Virus record (IMG/VR): IMGVR_UViG_3300005614_001084
Coordinates: 96,001 to 160,000 of that record
Length of the DNA stretch: 64,000 bases
Direction: 5' to 3' (one strand)
DNA from: a virus
Lineage: Duplodnaviria; Caudoviricetes
This document shows positions 3,836-11,627 of this stretch, piece by piece. Within the stretch, counting starts at the first letter, position 1. Each line of letters begins with the position of its first letter. The notes under the pieces are model-generated. The model was not told the origin of the DNA, ran no database searches, and saw nothing but the letters and a program-made list of their open reading frames with translations. The translations under genes were made by a program, and so were the position numbers.

Positions 3836-4189
3836 GAGATCGGTACGACGCACATTCCATCCCGCGATCGTCTCCAACCCTACAACTCTCGTTCGTCATC
3901 GCTTCCATGCTCGGCCTAGGCCCGGCGCGTTAGCTTGAGACCCACCTGCTTACCCACGGTGGTCCTGGGTTACTGCGCCAAGCTGATCCCTCCCATGCTG
4001 CGCGCAACAAAGCTCGCGGCGCATCCGCGCGAGACTTACATCTCAACAACACCACCAGCTTTTCCGCGGTGGTCCCGGATCGATGCAGGTCTCGTCCCCT
4101 GCCAGGAGGCCCGACCTTCTCACGTAGACTTCCGTCGTCGGCCCTTTCCGTTCATCACACAGCGCCGGCTTACCCGCGGCGTTCCGGGA
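3836..4189 (-). ncRNA. array A: 3 pseudoknot repeats with (GNNN)n tracts
   Basis: 28-nt repeats at 3942, 4052, 4162 (110-nt period); period-4 C on + strand, clearest at 3841-3934. Confidence 0.75.
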
Positions 4190-4481
4190 GCATCTTCGGT
4201 CTCACACGATGCGGGCCGTGCGGACACATCGTGAGGTCGATGGCTGGCCTGACGTCACCGCGCGAATCCATCCGATCGATGATGTTGTTGATGTCGCGCA
4301 CCTCATGCCCGGTATCGTCGAAGTGCGCCGCATCTTCGTGCGACTTGCCGCAGTGCGCGCAGAGGTCGTGAGCGTAGACACCTTCCATCTCAGCACCAGC
4401 CACGAACTCGTGCTGATCCCCGTACACATCACGGGCCAGGTTCCCGCCGCACTCCTCGCAGATGCACCTCACCTCGTTCAC
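4170..4481 (-). CDS. small Cys/His-rich protein
   Basis: CEEC, CAHC; GTGA overlap; stop TAA lies inside the 4162 repeat. Confidence 0.6.
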   Translation of the reverse strand: MNEVRCICEECGGNLARDVYGDQHEFVAGAEMEGVYAHDLCAHCGKSHEDAAHFDDTGHEVRDINNIIDRMDSRGDVRPAIDLTMCPHGPHRVRPKMLPERRG

Positions 4482-5116
4482 TTCGTGCTCCCCGGCTTCA
4501 CGCGTTCGAGCAAGAAGTCGAGGTCGGCGCAGTGATCGACTCCCCACATCTCTGCGGCCTCGGCGCGAAGCTTCGCGACGAAGGTGTCGGCCTCGGCGCG
4601 CAGGGCGTGCACCTTCTCGTACAGCTTCTCGGGATCACCCCACAGCTCGGCCTTCACCATCGCGGCGTTGACCCTGCGTCCCCGACCTCCCTTGCTTCTC
4701 GGCGGATCGATCTCCGCGCTGAGCCGCATCAGTCGGTACATCCCCTCGTTGATTTCGGTCGCGCCCTCGAACGCATCCCGAATCTCCTCCGCCAGCCACA
4801 TCGCCTGCTCTTCGCTCAGCGCCAGGCGCTCGACGAGCAGCGCAAGACCATCGGCATGCTTCTTCTCCCAGTCCAGCATCGTGGCGCGGCTCTTCTTCTC
4901 CTCCGCGATGCGGCATCTCTCCTCGTGCGCCGCGTAGTAGTAGTTCGCGCGCTCCACCGGATCACTACTCGCCGTGATCTCGATGCGAACGTCGTTGAAC
5001 ACCAAGACCTCGGTGTTGCCGGTGCGCTTCGCCTCTTCCACCACCGCTTTCGTCGCATCGGTGATCCACCCCAGGGTGTGGATGGTGCCGTCTTCCCTCC
5101 GATACAGTCGAAACAT
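4478..5116 (-). CDS. hypothetical protein
   Basis: CTATAAG + GGAGG then ATG 5116. Confidence 0.75.
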   Translation of the reverse strand: MFRLYRREDGTIHTLGWITDATKAVVEEAKRTGNTEVLVFNDVRIEITASSDPVERANYYYAAHEERCRIAEEKKSRATMLDWEKKHADGLALLVERLALSEEQAMWLAEEIRDAFEGATEINEGMYRLMRLSAEIDPPRSKGGRGRRVNAAMVKAELWGDPEKLYEKVHALRAEADTFVAKLRAEAAEMWGVDHCADLDFLLERVKPGSTK

Positions 5117-5131
5117 CTCTACCTCCAAGAT

Positions 5132-5138
5132 CTTATAG
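5132..5138 (-). promoter_or_regulatory. CTAT(A/C)AG phage promoter motif (representative of ~20 copies)
   Basis: Recurs just upstream of RBS/start codons on both strands; list in findings. Confidence 0.65.
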
Positions 5139-5141
5139 GGC

Positions 5142-5167
5142 AAAAAGAACACGCCAAAGCGTGTTCT
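5142..5167 (-). terminator. intrinsic terminator closing array B
   Basis: AGAACACGC-TTTG-GCGTGTTCT-TTTT. Confidence 0.75.
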
Positions 5168-9500: not shown

Positions 9501-9525
9501 AAAAGGAGAGGCGCGATGCCTCTCC
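9501..9525 (-). terminator. intrinsic terminator closing unit D
   Basis: GGAGAGGC-ATCGC-GCCTCTCC-TTTT. Confidence 0.75.
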
Positions 9526-9606
9526 CCGGACCGACTTCTCATCCGTCCCACATACCCTCAAACGTTACATCTGGATTCCGGCCTGCTTATCGGCGGCCTT
9601 CCCCGA
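9526..9606 (-). ncRNA. unit D: single pseudoknot repeat + (GNNN)n tract
   Basis: Repeat 9579-9606; C at 10 of 13 register positions 9527-9575. Confidence 0.65.
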
Positions 9607-10677
9607 ACCTTCAGGATGGAAGATCTGAGCCTGGCGAGCCTTTTCGTAGGCACCGGCTTCCACCAGCAGACCAGACCTGGATGCCACCTTGGTCTCGCCC
9701 AGGGGCGTACGTATCTCCATCGCGATCTCATGCGCCGATACGTCAGTACGCGCAAGCGGTTTCTCCTTCGCTCTTTGATCCGTGGCGAAGGCTCTCACCT
9801 CAGCGAGCGGATGCGTGGTGATGAACAGCCAGTGAAGAGCGATCATCGCCGAGGCGCTTCCCTCACCTTGGGTCTTGATCCAGTTCACAAAGATGGCGTC
9901 CCACACCTCATCGATCCGAAGATGTGTTGCGAACGCTTTTCGACGCTGTGCCGGATTCATCTGAGACAGCTCGGTGCTACTGAAGCCAGTAGCGAGCAGC
10001 GCACTCATTGCCGCACTCGATCCTGCCGGAGTGGAGACGAGCCGGGCCCACTCCTCGTGAAGAGGATCTCGGCCCTCCTCCGGCTTGGGCGGCGGTATCT
10101 TGGGATCAGGGAAGTCCGGGAACTTGTCGAACGCCGCGAGCTTGAGCCCGAGCTTGTTCATCAGCTCGATGTCGCCGGTCTCGGAGAGAAGCGTCAGGTC
10201 TTCGGCGGTAAGCGACACGAAGAGCTTGCTCAGCCACAACGCGCGAGGCGAGATCTCCCCGAACATCTCAGCGATGCAGTAGTTCACGAATCGGGTGTCC
10301 ACGCCTCCAACCAAGGTGCCGCCACGAAGATGACGTGACGTCGCCTCCGCCCACACCCTGACGCCGAGATCGTAGAGCATCTTTCGCGTCCGTGACTCGA
10401 ACTGTGCCTCCATCCGCCTGAAGCCCTCCTCCCGCATACGGGCAGACAGCGCCTCGACCCCGAGATGCAAGATCTTATCCCGTGGGATGTTGTTGCGATC
10501 GAGAACTTCTCGGACGCGGTCCGTAACTCGCTCCAGCTCCAGAACCTTACGGCGCTCGCCGTAAAGCTCCGTCTTCAACTTCTCGATCTCCCGCTCGTAG
10601 TCGGCGACCGTCTTCTTGATCCCGAACTCCTTGTTCGTCGTACGTTCCTTGATCTTCTGCACTCGCTTCTTATTCAT
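9565..10677 (-). CDS. hypothetical protein with N-terminal coiled coil
   Basis: 370-aa ORF, AGGAG RBS. Confidence 0.75.
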   Translation of the reverse strand: MNKKRVQKIKERTTNKEFGIKKTVADYEREIEKLKTELYGERRKVLELERVTDRVREVLDRNNIPRDKILHLGVEALSARMREEGFRRMEAQFESRTRKMLYDLGVRVWAEATSRHLRGGTLVGGVDTRFVNYCIAEMFGEISPRALWLSKLFVSLTAEDLTLLSETGDIELMNKLGLKLAAFDKFPDFPDPKIPPPKPEEGRDPLHEEWARLVSTPAGSSAAMSALLATGFSSTELSQMNPAQRRKAFATHLRIDEVWDAIFVNWIKTQGEGSASAMIALHWLFITTHPLAEVRAFATDQRAKEKPLARTDVSAHEIAMEIRTPLGETKVASRSGLLVEAGAYEKARQAQIFHPEGSGKAADKQAGIQM

Positions 10678-11201
10678 GATCGTCTCCTTCTTCGATACGG
10701 TGGTCTGCCGCGGTTCTTCTTCACCACCGCGTACAGGCGGGCCTGGATGCGACGAAGCTCTGCGATGGTCTCGGGAGTGAGATGGCGGCGGAACACGGCC
10801 TGGCGCAGACGACGCGCCACCTTGTCCCTTCTCTCGCGTGCCCAGCCATGATCGTCGAACATGTTGAGCGTGGACTCCACGCCGAGCCCGTTCTGCCGAG
10901 CCAGCCCGATGCTGAGCAGAGACGCGATCTCCTCCTCTGCATCAACAAGTCTTTCTGAGATCTCGGCGCGATGCTGGCCAAGCCTGTGCGGATCACCGAG
11001 ACCGAAGTACGGCAGCTCCTTGCGCGATGGTGGTGCGACCAGCAGATGCGCCAGCTCGTGCGCCAAGTGCTCAGCGGTATCTGCGGTATGGGCGTCCTCT
11101 TCCTCGTCGTAGTACGGCCACTCACCTTCGATCCACCGCAGCCCGTGCTTGCTCGCCAGCTTGATGATGTTGCGCCCTGCGACCGTGTTCAACGCGACCA
11201 T
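10674..11201 (-). CDS. HExxH metallopeptidase-like (ImmA/IrrE-like) protein
   Basis: LAHELAHLL; true start ATG 11201 after CTATAAG/GGAGG. Confidence 0.6.
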   Translation of the reverse strand: MVALNTVAGRNIIKLASKHGLRWIEGEWPYYDEEEDAHTADTAEHLAHELAHLLVAPPSRKELPYFGLGDPHRLGQHRAEISERLVDAEEEIASLLSIGLARQNGLGVESTLNMFDDHGWARERRDKVARRLRQAVFRRHLTPETIAELRRIQARLYAVVKKNRGRPPYRRRRRS

Positions 11202-11225
11202 GCCTTCCTCCGCATGCTTATAGAC

Positions 11226-11253
11226 AAAAAGATCAACCCGAAAGTTGATCTTT
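11226..11253 (-). terminator. intrinsic terminator closing array E
   Basis: AAAGATCAAC-TTTCGG-GTTGATCTTT-TT. Confidence 0.75.
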
Positions 11254-11627
11254 AGTACCCAGCTCTCCGCAGAGCTATGATCCGTTCCTACCACCTATCG
11301 TAGCTACCGAAGTTCTATACCCCAATCGTTCAGTCATATGGCTGTTCAGTCATATGGCCGGCCGCCCTGTGATACTGGAGGTGGTGCCGCCTGCTTACCC
11401 GCGGCGGCCCCGGAAGTTTCGATCTGAAAGAGCGAGCCCGACGTCTCTTGTTCGCCAACGCTAGCCCCCAGAGAATGGACGACACCGGCTTACCCACGGT
11501 ATCCCTGGGATCGATCTTGTTGGACGTAGTACGTTCCCGCGTCCTGTGCCACCAGCGATACTTCGACCGCCTTCAGGCGTCCCATCCATCCTTGAAGCGC
11601 CACCTGCTTCACCGCGGTGGCCCCGGC
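11254..11627 (-). ncRNA. array E: 3 pseudoknot repeats with (GNNN)n tracts, directly downstream of RAMP gene
   Basis: Repeats at 11387, 11482, 11600. Confidence 0.8.
11328..11358. repeat. tandem duplication GTTCAGTCATATGGC x2 (16-nt period)
   Basis: 11328-11342 and 11344-11358. Confidence 0.9.

What the first reader, a model, noticed from the sequence alone, without database searches (positions are those of the whole stretch)
3942..11627. The 28-nt repeat is a covarying H-type pseudoknot, not a CRISPR hairpin
In RNA sense, the first ~4 nt pair with nt 14-17 in all 16 copies (3 bp in the 5413 copy), with compensatory changes: CCCA/UGGG (3942, 5247, 11482), UCCG/CGGA (4052), UCGG/CCGA (5781, 9579), CCUG/CAGG (6825), CCGG/CCGG (5513, 6937), GCCG/CGGU (11600). 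The crossing stem also covaries: CCACC/GGUGG, GCGCC/GGCGC, CCGCC/GGCGG, CCUC/GAGG, GGCC/GGCC. A near-invariant AAG linker and a bulged base are kept. Inference: it is a processing signal, an exonuclease-blocking cap, a RAMP nucleation handle or a tiny ribozyme.
Basis: partly seen in the sequence, partly recalled or inferred. Interest (0 to 1): 0.82.

Follow-up and report, generated by a model that had tools for sequence, protein, structure and literature searches.

The report
Pseudoknot cap of phage guide RNAs
The 28-base repeat is a real, covarying RNA pseudoknot that punctuates 16 guide-like RNAs next to a Cas7-like protein in a large phage, so it looks like a variant (4-base instead of 5-base code) of the CRISPR-like VIPR systems first described in 2026 preprints.

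Summary
The window lies in a 172-kb phage record. It carries exactly 16 copies of a 28-nt element, all on the minus strand, within window 3942-11627. Two crossing helices (4 bp and 5 bp) show compensatory changes well beyond shuffled, slid and partner-swapped controls. The loop bases GG, G and AAGC are nearly invariant.

The context explains it. The gene just upstream of the first cluster (11669-12775) folds as a winged-helix domain fused to a Cas7-type RAMP. Between the pseudoknots lie non-coding, G-rich tracts with a G every 4 nt. Relatives of this protein are again followed by such tracts. The two closest relatives carry the same pseudoknot.

This matches the VIPR architecture described in 2026 preprints: a phage RAMP plus guide RNAs made of a short tandem code and capped by a pseudoknot. 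It differs in three ways: a 4-nt rather than 5-nt register, a wHTH-fused effector, and a pseudoknot that probably heads each tract rather than tailing it. Sequence homology to the published Vipr protein was not detectable. Expression, RNA ends and targets were not shown.

This scan has met 5-nt VIPR loci before on other DNA, but no 4-nt register outside this genome.

Verdict: a real feature and a new variant of a known kind.

The parts
11600..11627 (-). pseudoknot copy 1 (S1 GCCG/CGGU, S2 CCACC/GGUGG), 41 nt after the RAMP gene stop
11482..11509 (-). pseudoknot copy (S1 CCCA/UGGG, S2 AUACC/GGUGU with a U.G pair)
11387..11414 (-). pseudoknot copy (S1 UCCG/CGGG, S2 CCGCC/GGCGG)
9579..9606 (-). 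lone pseudoknot copy (S1 UCGG/CCGA, S2 GGCC/GGCC) at the 3' end of ORF 9565-10677, followed by a 44-nt period-4 tract and a terminator
6937..6963 (-). pseudoknot copy (S1 CCGG/CCGG, S2 CCUC/GAGG); the TGA stop of ORF 6940-7461 lies in its 3' strand
6825..6852 (-). pseudoknot copy (S1 CCUG/CAGG)
6657..6684 (-). pseudoknot copy (S1 CCGG/CUGG with a G.U pair)
5903..5929 (-). pseudoknot copy; its UAA (of UAAGC) is the stop codon of ORF 5911-6534; S2 has a bulged A
5781..5808 (-). pseudoknot copy (S1 UCGG/CCGA; AAGA instead of AAGC; loop 2 is U)
5630..5656 (-). most degenerate copy (S1 CCCG/CGGG intact, S2 weakened)
5513..5539 (-). pseudoknot copy (S1 CCGG/CCGG, S2 GCGCC/GGCGC)
5413..5440 (-). pseudoknot copy with a 3-bp S1
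5247..5274 (-). pseudoknot copy (S1 CCCA/UGGG)
4162..4188 (-). pseudoknot copy; its UAA is the stop codon of ORF 4170-4547
4052..4079 (-). pseudoknot copy (S1 UCCG/CGGA)
3942..3969 (-). pseudoknot copy (S1 CCCA/UGGG)
11669..12775 (-). gene for a 368-aa protein: N-terminal PadR/Pex-like winged helix (residues 1-109) plus a Cas7-family RAMP domain (residues 131-312); the likely reader of the RNAs
11254..11668 (-). cluster 1: non-coding, G-rich tracts with a 4-nt G register around three pseudoknots
5166..5902 (-). cluster 4: five inter-pseudoknot tracts plus a terminal tract; no coding signal; period-4 G (for example one 138-nt tract held in a single phase)
6571..6936 (-). cluster 3 tracts (period-4 z = 6.2)
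3830..4161 (-). cluster 5 tracts (weak periodicity)
9513..9578 (-). cluster 2 tract after the lone pseudoknot
11228..11253 (-). intrinsic-terminator-like hairpin closing cluster 1, followed by CTATAAGC, GGAGG and ATG 11201
5128..5165 (-). terminator-like hairpin plus U run plus the CTATAAGATCT motif closing cluster 4, ahead of ATG 5116. The same junction motif closes clusters at 6544-6570 and 9488-9512. A terminator-like hairpin at 3815-3829, without the CTATAAG motif, follows cluster 5.

Best explanation
The 28-nt repeat is the structured cap or punctuation module of guide-like RNAs that belong to a phage RAMP system of the VIPR kind. Each of the 16 units is one H-type pseudoknot plus one non-coding tract of 44-140 nt written in 4-nt steps (G, then three variable bases).

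The neighbouring wHTH-Cas7-like protein is inferred to polymerise along the tract, one protomer per step. That is how Vipr does it on 5-nt steps in the published SUSP1 structures. In this reading the pseudoknot gives the filament a fixed end. It marks where one guide stops and the next begins in the co-transcribed arrays, and it protects that RNA end.

Shown here:
- the pseudoknot covaries;
- the RNA sense is the minus strand;
- the tracts are non-coding and 4-nt periodic;
- the adjacent protein has a Cas7-type fold;
- the protein-plus-tract association recurs in six related loci, two of which carry the same pseudoknot.

Inferred, not shown: that protein and RNA bind, that the tracts are guides, and which end of the mature RNA carries the pseudoknot. 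I lean towards the 5' end (about 60%). All 16 pseudoknots are followed by a tract, and all five clusters end pseudoknot-tract-terminator. In the relative L118 a promoter-like motif sits 7-8 nt upstream of the pseudoknot and a terminator closes the tract.
For: Structure:
- Searches give covariation far beyond all controls.
- G.U outnumbers A.C 9 to 2.
- The loop bases are invariant.

Specificity:
- The element occurs only in this 7.7-kb block of the 172-kb genome.

Tracts:
- No coding signal in any frame.
- Period-4 G power has z = 12.9, with nothing at periods 3, 5 or 6.
- The control behaves as expected: SUSP1 vrRNA regions give period 5 (z = 12.8), and coding regions give period 3.

Protein:
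- The AF2 model has pLDDT 74.
- Foldseek hits are Cmr4 (E 3.4e-7), Cas7-11, Csm3 and type VII Cas7, all at probability 1.00.
- An independent aligner gives Z 11.2 for Cmr4, 10.8 for Csm3 and 9.9 for type IV Csf2. The N-terminus matches Pex/PadR winged helices at Z 11.8.

Conserved association:
- Homologues at 40-87% identity are followed or preceded by 0.4-1.6 kb of non-coding, period-4 G tracts in L118, L121, L123, L125, L126 and L129.
- L118 has five copies of the same pseudoknot and L126 has one, with new compensatory variants.
- The flanking genes are not conserved between the window and L118.

Precedent:
- VIPR vrRNAs are a tandem tract plus a conserved tail with a pseudoknot (10.64898/2026.04.26.720920).
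- My own parse of the SUSP1 tails shows the same layout: S1 of 4 bp, S2 of 5-6 bp, and an A-rich third loop. The SUSP1 vipr gene is identified by PDB 36pp_D.
Against: - No sequence-level homology to SUSP1 Vipr or its family (tblastn; hhalign probability about 1%).
- The register is 4 nt, whereas every published VIPR type and the Evo-PIN screen report pentamers.
- G occupancy of the fixed position is only about two thirds, much looser than SUSP1's GGY (where shuffled tracts also reach 0.61).
- The tract phase is not locked to either pseudoknot boundary.
- More distant relatives (L121, L125, L129) use other structured modules, and there the arrays end with the module. That fits a 3' cap rather than a 5' head.
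- L126 has an 87-nt periodic tract before its first pseudoknot.
- No accessory (vap) gene was recognised.
- No expression data could be obtained.
Confidence: 0.72

Rival explanations
1. A phage REP-like 3'-UTR element. In this reading the pseudoknot is only an mRNA-end stabiliser or RNase processing signal for the upstream genes and is unrelated to the RAMP protein.
For: Four of the five clusters start with a pseudoknot at the end of a gene. Three copies overlap the stop codon. The clusters sit in 3'-UTR-like positions ahead of terminators. GATC is enriched just upstream of the copies (8/16 against a 16% background, P = 0.0016), which could be a cleavage site.
Against: The element is absent from the other 164 kb of the genome and its many operons. 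It co-occurs with the RAMP gene in L118 and L126, where the flanking genes differ. Up to six copies follow a single gene. The loop bases are invariant and the intervening tracts are 4-nt periodic, neither of which a simple exonuclease block needs.
Confidence: 0.12
2. A small ligand-binding (riboswitch-like) or self-cleaving RNA motif, repeated.
For: The layout resembles compact H-type aptamers such as preQ1-I and guanidine-III, as I recall them. The junction and loop nucleotides are invariant.
Against: No Rfam family matches at gathering score or at E <= 10. There are 16 copies with no expression platform. The positions are downstream of genes rather than upstream. No further conserved helices flank the 28 nt. 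Nothing indicates a cleavage site.
Confidence: 0.04
3. A degenerate or atypical CRISPR array whose repeats have drifted.
For: The repeat length of 28 nt is typical. A Cas7-fold gene is adjacent. Variable sequence lies between the repeats.
Against: Copies are only 66-83% identical to each other. Spacing is 95-170 nt and irregular. The copies fall in five clusters split by protein-coding genes. The intervening sequence has an internal 4-nt code rather than being captured foreign DNA. No Cas1/Cas2 or other Cas domain appears among the 20 neighbouring ORFs scanned. In L118 the units have their own promoter-like and terminator-like signals.
Confidence: 0.03
4. A DNA-level element, for example a protein-binding or recombination site, whose apparent pairing is incidental.
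For: The copies are dispersed direct repeats in intergenic DNA of a mobile genome.
Against: A double-stranded DNA site gives no reason for the compensatory changes seen in two crossing helices. Strand-asymmetric wobble pairs (9 G.U against 2 A.C) point to a transcribed single strand. All copies are co-oriented with the genes.
Confidence: 0.03

Closest known systems
vrRNA pseudoknot tail of type II VIPR systems (Escherichia phage SUSP1; bioRxiv 10.64898/2026.04.26.720920 and 10.64898/2026.04.26.720927)
   Same: Both are phage-encoded and sit next to a lone RAMP gene, in long intergenic regions that hold several guide-like RNAs. Each RNA has a short-period tandem tract plus a compact H-type pseudoknot. 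My parse of KT454805.2 gives S1 of 4 bp, S2 of 5-6 bp and an A-rich third loop, with stems that covary between vrRNAs. There is no CRISPR array.
   Different: There is no sequence similarity in either the RNA or the protein. The tract period is 4 nt here and 5 nt in SUSP1. The fixed position is a single, loosely kept G instead of GGY. The effector is 368 aa with a fused winged helix, against 195 aa for SUSP1 Vipr. Here the pseudoknot precedes every tract and terminators close the arrays, whereas in SUSP1 it caps the 3' end. There are 16 units in five clusters interleaved with genes.
Class 1 CRISPR Cas7 backbones with crRNA handles (Csm3, Cmr4, Cas7-11, type VII and type IV Cas7)
   Same: These are the best structural matches of the adjacent protein. 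The concept is shared: a RAMP filament on a guide RNA that starts from a repeat-derived handle.
   Different: There is no CRISPR array, no Cas5/Cas6/Cas10 or adaptation genes, and no 6-nt register. The repeats diverge with compensatory changes instead of being near-identical.
Cas12a crRNA 5' handle pseudoknot (recalled from the structural literature; not tested here)
   Same: A repeat-derived pseudoknot at the 5' end of a guide RNA that anchors the effector.
   Different: The protein family is unrelated (RuvC effector), the sequence differs, and there the handle comes from a true CRISPR repeat.
Type III toxin-antitoxin RNA repeats (ToxI, CptI, TenpI)
   Same: Repeated RNA units that fold as pseudoknots and bind a neighbouring protein.
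   Different: Those repeats are directly tandem 34-45-nt units cut by the toxin. Here the pseudoknots are 95-170 nt apart, and no ToxN-like protein was found.

Membership tests
VIPR system (Vipr RAMP + vrRNA) | A lone RAMP-fold protein encoded beside the RNAs, outside any CRISPR-Cas locus, typically in a phage | tested here: met
   The AF2 model matches Cas7-family RAMPs: Foldseek E 3e-7 to 1e-5 and VIA Z 9-11. The record is a 172-kb phage. No Cas domains appear in 20 neighbouring ORFs.
VIPR system (Vipr RAMP + vrRNA) | Protein homologous in sequence to the published Vipr proteins | tested here: inconclusive
   tblastn against phages, including SUSP1, finds nothing. hhalign of a 40-sequence profile against a 22-sequence SUSP1-Vipr profile gives probability 1.1%; only the C-terminal G-loop region aligns. 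The preprint itself says RAMPs share little sequence similarity. A structural comparison with PDB 36pp could not be run.
VIPR system (Vipr RAMP + vrRNA) | Guide tract made of pentanucleotide tandem units (GGY/NN or other 5-mers) | tested here: not met
   Period 4 is found, not period 5, in the window (z = 12.9) and in six related loci. The SUSP1 control gives period 5 (z = 12.8). The preprints mention only 5-nt units.
VIPR system (Vipr RAMP + vrRNA) | A conserved structured cap (a pseudoknot in the SUSP1 clade) joined to the variable tract | tested here: met
   A covarying pseudoknot flanks every tract. Which end of the mature RNA it occupies is unresolved.
VIPR system (Vipr RAMP + vrRNA) | vrRNAs are expressed, bind the protein and specify DNA targets through a gapped code | not testable with these tools
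A local search for targets under skip rules 0-3 was no better than its control.
CRISPR array | Near-identical direct repeats at regular spacing with unique spacers of about 30-40 nt | tested here: not met
   Copies are 66-83% identical. Spacing is 95-170 nt within clusters, and the clusters are split by genes.
H-type RNA pseudoknot | Two helices in which the 5' strand of the second lies in the loop of the first, each supported by compensatory changes | tested here: met
   helix 1 has 3 of 4 pairs, and helix 2 has 4 of 5 pairs, with changes on both sides; the partner-swap test gives 0 of 5000. Loop lengths of 3, 1 and 6 nt are sterically ordinary for 5-bp and 4-bp stems (established knowledge).
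Curated RNA families (Rfam 15: riboswitches, ribozymes, CRISPR-DR families) | Covariance-model match | tested here: not met
   Only the tmRNA matches at gathering score. Nothing overlaps the repeats at E <= 10.
Type III toxin-antitoxin RNA | Directly tandem pseudoknot repeats next to a ToxN-type endoribonuclease | tested here: not met
   The copies are dispersed rather than tandem. No such domain appears in the neighbouring ORFs.

The most novel reading that the evidence does not exclude
This is an undescribed branch of RAMP-guided systems. A wHTH-fused Cas7-like effector reads guides written in 4-nt units (one fixed G plus three variable bases). Each guide is headed, not tailed, by a 28-nt pseudoknot. 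The pseudoknot also serves as punctuation in arrays co-transcribed with upstream genes, and in some copies it contains those genes' stop codons. Three variable bases per unit would imply a recognition code different from the published 2-in-5 'one-nucleotide skip' rule.
Probability: 0.45. Interest if true: 0.75.

Novelty: new variant of a known kind. Interest (0 to 1): 0.62.

Why it matters
VIPR systems were described only in 2026. They are proposed as the viral ancestors of CRISPR RAMP effectors and as minimal programmable DNA binders. All published types, and a 376-million-region language-model screen, report a 5-nt code.

A related family of 162 cluster representatives uses a 4-nt register, a fused winged helix and lineage-specific RNA caps: the pseudoknot here, and other hairpins in relatives. 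If it works as inferred, the guide code and the filament geometry are evolvable rather than fixed. That would offer a second natural code to decipher. It would also give a clean test of what the cap does, because the cap changes between lineages while the tract grammar stays the same.

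Tried and rejected
1. Small ORFs ending at the UAA of the motif. The tracts have no coding signal. Most UAA frames lack a start codon. The UAA is a real stop codon for only two genes.
2. Rfam at gathering score and at E <= 10: nothing on the repeats. A chance-level rsmX hit (E 3.8) lies at 5144-5218.
3. Pattern scan of IMG/VR for the commonest variant gave 75 single hits, all read as chance. The best one (L044) lies inside a coding sequence.
4. Relatives found through the neighbouring 370-aa protein: none. 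Through the DNA ligase: 34 loci and five whole records with no motif. blastn of the block against cultured phages found nothing.
5. Phase coupling between the 4-nt register and either pseudoknot boundary, and asymmetry of periodicity on the two flanks: none found, so the orientation could not be settled this way.
6. Nested-only folding. The 5-bp helix is usually the MFE, but z-scores are near 0. Thermodynamics alone says nothing, and a 2-bp extension of S2 through the invariant G and GC cannot be tested by covariation.
7. Target search under skip rules 0-3 over the rest of the genome plus 1.4 Mb of fetched loci. Real queries scored the same as reversed controls (maximum 21-22 of 27), apart from trivial self-hits.
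8. A Viterbi phasing of the tracts overfits: shuffled tracts reach 0.61 G against 0.68 for real tracts. It was therefore used only as a rough description.
9. Conserved accessory gene: the flanking ORFs of the window and of L118 are unrelated.

Full report
**What is there**

The window is bases 96001-160000 of a 172,310-bp IMG/VR phage record that CheckV rates complete. It has about 62% G+C and its own tmRNA gene.

A repeat search, a structural descriptor and a covariance model all find the same 16 copies of a 28-nt element. All are on the minus strand, between window 3942 and 11627. Over the whole genome the model gives these 16 hits (E 4.5e-7 to 1.2e-3) and then nothing better than E 0.93. 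The copies form five clusters:
- 11600 / 11482 / 11387
- 9579
- 6938 / 6825 / 6657
- 5903 / 5781 / 5634 / 5513 / 5413 / 5247
- 4163 / 4052 / 3942

**Is the pseudoknot real?**

In RNA sense (minus strand) the layout is:
- S1a, 4 nt
- loop 1, 2-3 nt, mostly GGR
- S2a, 5 nt
- loop 2, a single G
- S1b, 4 nt
- loop 3, YAAGCN
- S2b, 5 nt

On the ungapped alignment, 90.3% of cells pair against 73.5% in column shuffles. There are 22 double-change cells against 5.3, and 7 of 9 pairs vary on both sides. Sliding the partner columns by 1-3 positions drops pairing to 34-51%.

The copies are paralogues, so I added a partner-swap test. It asks whether each copy's own 3' strand fits better than another copy's. 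S1 gives 63/64 against a mean of 55.6. S2 gives 73/80 against 58.6. None of 5000 swaps reaches the observed value. There are 13 different S1 and 12 different S2 combinations.

AAG is invariant, and the C after it, the loop-2 G and the loop-1 GG are nearly so. Wobble pairs favour the minus strand as RNA (9 G.U against 2 A.C).

Nested-only folding finds the 5-bp helix in most copies, but its energies are no better than those of shuffles. The case therefore rests on covariation and not on thermodynamics.

**What surrounds it**

A codon-usage frame plot shows no coding signal in any minus-strand frame in the stretches that hold the copies, while the genes between them score clearly. The UAA inside the motif is the true stop codon of two genes (4170-4547 and 5911-6534). 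The TGA of a third gene (6940-7461) lies in S2b. The internal copies do not close small ORFs.

All five clusters close with a last pseudoknot, a last tract and a terminator-like hairpin. In four of them (not cluster 5) a conserved CTATAAG motif, a Shine-Dalgarno sequence and an ATG follow. The ORF after cluster 1 therefore starts at ATG 11201 and not at 11294.

The tracts are 34-44% G and carry a G every fourth base. Coherent period-4 power summed over the 16 tracts has z = 12.9, with nothing at periods 3, 5, 6 or 7. One 138-nt tract keeps a single phase from end to end. Coding controls give period 3.

**The neighbouring protein**

None of 20 ORFs around the block has a useful Pfam or PHROG hit, apart from a DNA ligase and a RecD-like helicase further upstream.

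The 368-aa ORF directly upstream of cluster 1 has homologues. A profile search finds 162 cluster representatives in 1.84 billion proteins. An AlphaFold model built on 11 sequences has pLDDT 74.
- Residues 131-312 match Cas7-family RAMPs. Foldseek gives Cmr4 at E 3.4e-7, then Cas7-11, Csm3 and type VII Cas7.
- An independent aligner over 48,161 chains gives Cmr4 Z 11.2, Csm3 Z 10.8 and type IV Csf2 Z 9.9.
- Residues 1-109 match Pex/PadR winged helices at Z 11.8.

**Relatives**

I fetched seven loci that encode homologues.

L126 (87% identity) has one copy of the same pseudoknot about 85 nt after the stop codon. An A-U pair there replaces the G.U of the window's first copy.

L118 (56% identity) has five copies with new compensatory variants. 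They are arranged as promoter-like motif (TTCCnCTATMAGT), 7-8 nt, pseudoknot, 130-210 nt G-rich tract, then a nearly invariant terminator hairpin. The same promoter-like motif also precedes protein-coding genes that have ribosome-binding sites.

L121, L125 and L129 (about 40% identity) have 1.0-1.6 kb of non-coding sequence after the gene, with other dispersed structured repeats:
- L121 and L125: a hairpin with covarying stem and the loop UGGCCGUGAUGGUG.
- L129: a long hairpin with a GGACAA loop, preceded by AAUAGAAC.

All of these regions, and the gap in L123, show period 4 in G (z 3-9) and none shows period 5. The flanking genes are not shared between the window and L118. The conserved unit is therefore the RAMP gene plus 4-nt-periodic RNA with a lineage-specific structured module.

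**Comparison with what is known**

A literature search led to the VIPR preprints. VIPR is a phage-borne lone RAMP (Vipr) with vrRNAs of about 100 nt in the flanking intergenic regions. [quoted passage not shown] I located the SUSP1 locus in KT454805.2. Its vipr gene is identical to PDB chain 36pp_D, 'SUSP1 Vipr protein'. I read its vrRNAs directly. Their tails parse as S1 4 bp / loop 2 nt / S2 5-6 bp / loop 2-3 nt / S1' / an A-rich loop of 8-9 nt / S2', with stems that differ between vrRNAs. This is the same H-type plan as the 28-nt repeat here.

The differences are real:
- There is no detectable sequence homology of the proteins.
- The register is 4 nt here, whereas the preprints and the Evo-PIN screen describe only pentamers.
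- The fixed position is much looser here.
- The effector carries a fused winged helix.

**Which end?**

Every one of the 16 pseudoknots is followed by a tract. Four clusters begin with a pseudoknot at a stop codon, and all five end tract-terminator. L118 looks like promoter-pseudoknot-tract-terminator. These points favour a 5' head.

Other points favour a 3' cap: the SUSP1 precedent, the periodic tract before the first pseudoknot in L126 (and 41 nt before it in the window), and arrays in L125 and L129 that end with their module. Register and periodicity show no asymmetry.

I put the 5' head at about 60%. Either way the element bounds the tracts.

**What was not shown**

Protein-RNA binding was not tested. 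No target was found: a local search under four skip rules matched its control.

**Verdict**

The functional reading is narrowed to a cap or handle of RAMP-bound guide-like RNAs. This is a new variant of a kind first described in 2026. Earlier reports of this scan found 5-nt VIPR loci on other genomes, but none with a 4-nt register.

Noticed in passing
window 3830-11668 (tracts between the pseudoknots); also L118, L121, L123, L125, L126, L129: The non-coding tracts have a G every 4 nt (summed power z = 12.9; relatives z 3-9), with no period-5 signal. SUSP1 vrRNAs give period 5 as a control. The published VIPR papers mention only pentamer units.
   Followed up: yes
window 5138, 6544, 9498, 13797, 15783 (minus strand); variant AGATCAGCTATCAGT at 12821 and 20217; CTATAAGC at about 11215-11222: A recurrent junction occurs directly before genes of this block: terminator-like hairpin, UUUUGCC, CTATAAGATCT, GGAGG, ATG. 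It is probably a phage-specific promoter placed right after a terminator. The related motif CTATMAGT sits 7-8 nt upstream of the pseudoknots in L118.
   Followed up: partly
L121:11140-12733 and L125:2694-4212: In 40%-identity relatives of the RAMP gene the dispersed repeat is a hairpin with covarying stem and the conserved loop (U)GGCCG(U/A)GAUGGUG. The loop contains a box-C-like GUGAUG(A), so it may be a K-turn or K-loop. It is often preceded by GAAGAAAG.
   Followed up: partly
L129:4890-5830: Another relative has four copies of AAUAGAAC followed by a long hairpin with covarying outer and inner stems and a GGACAA loop. The last copy runs into a U tract and so doubles as a terminator.
   Followed up: partly
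window 34892-35281 (minus strand): The phage encodes its own tmRNA (Rfam 120.7 bits; tag peptide ANDSSYAQARAA).
   Followed up: no
window 14414-15559 (minus strand); L128 (SUSP1) 29511-30611: An ATP-dependent DNA ligase gene lies a few kb upstream of the RAMP locus here and in L118. In SUSP1 the ligase gene is the immediate neighbour of the VIPR locus. This may be coincidence or shared placement in the early or replication gene block.
   Followed up: no
window: up to 16 nt upstream of the pseudoknot starts: GATC (often AGATC) lies just 5' of 8 of the 16 copies, against 16% of comparable windows (P = 0.0016). The same AGATC occurs in the promoter-like motifs. It could be an initiator element or a cleavage site.
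   Followed up: partly
window 11335-11365 (minus strand): A 15-nt direct repeat (GCCAUAUGACUGAAC, two copies) lies in the tract after the last pseudoknot of cluster 1.
   Followed up: no
window 28728-30843 (minus strand): RecD2-like helicase domains lie in two overlapping minus-strand ORFs (29752-30843: OB, HHH; 28728-30002: AAA_19/AAA_30, SH3, UvrD_C). The gene may be split or frameshifted.
   Followed up: no
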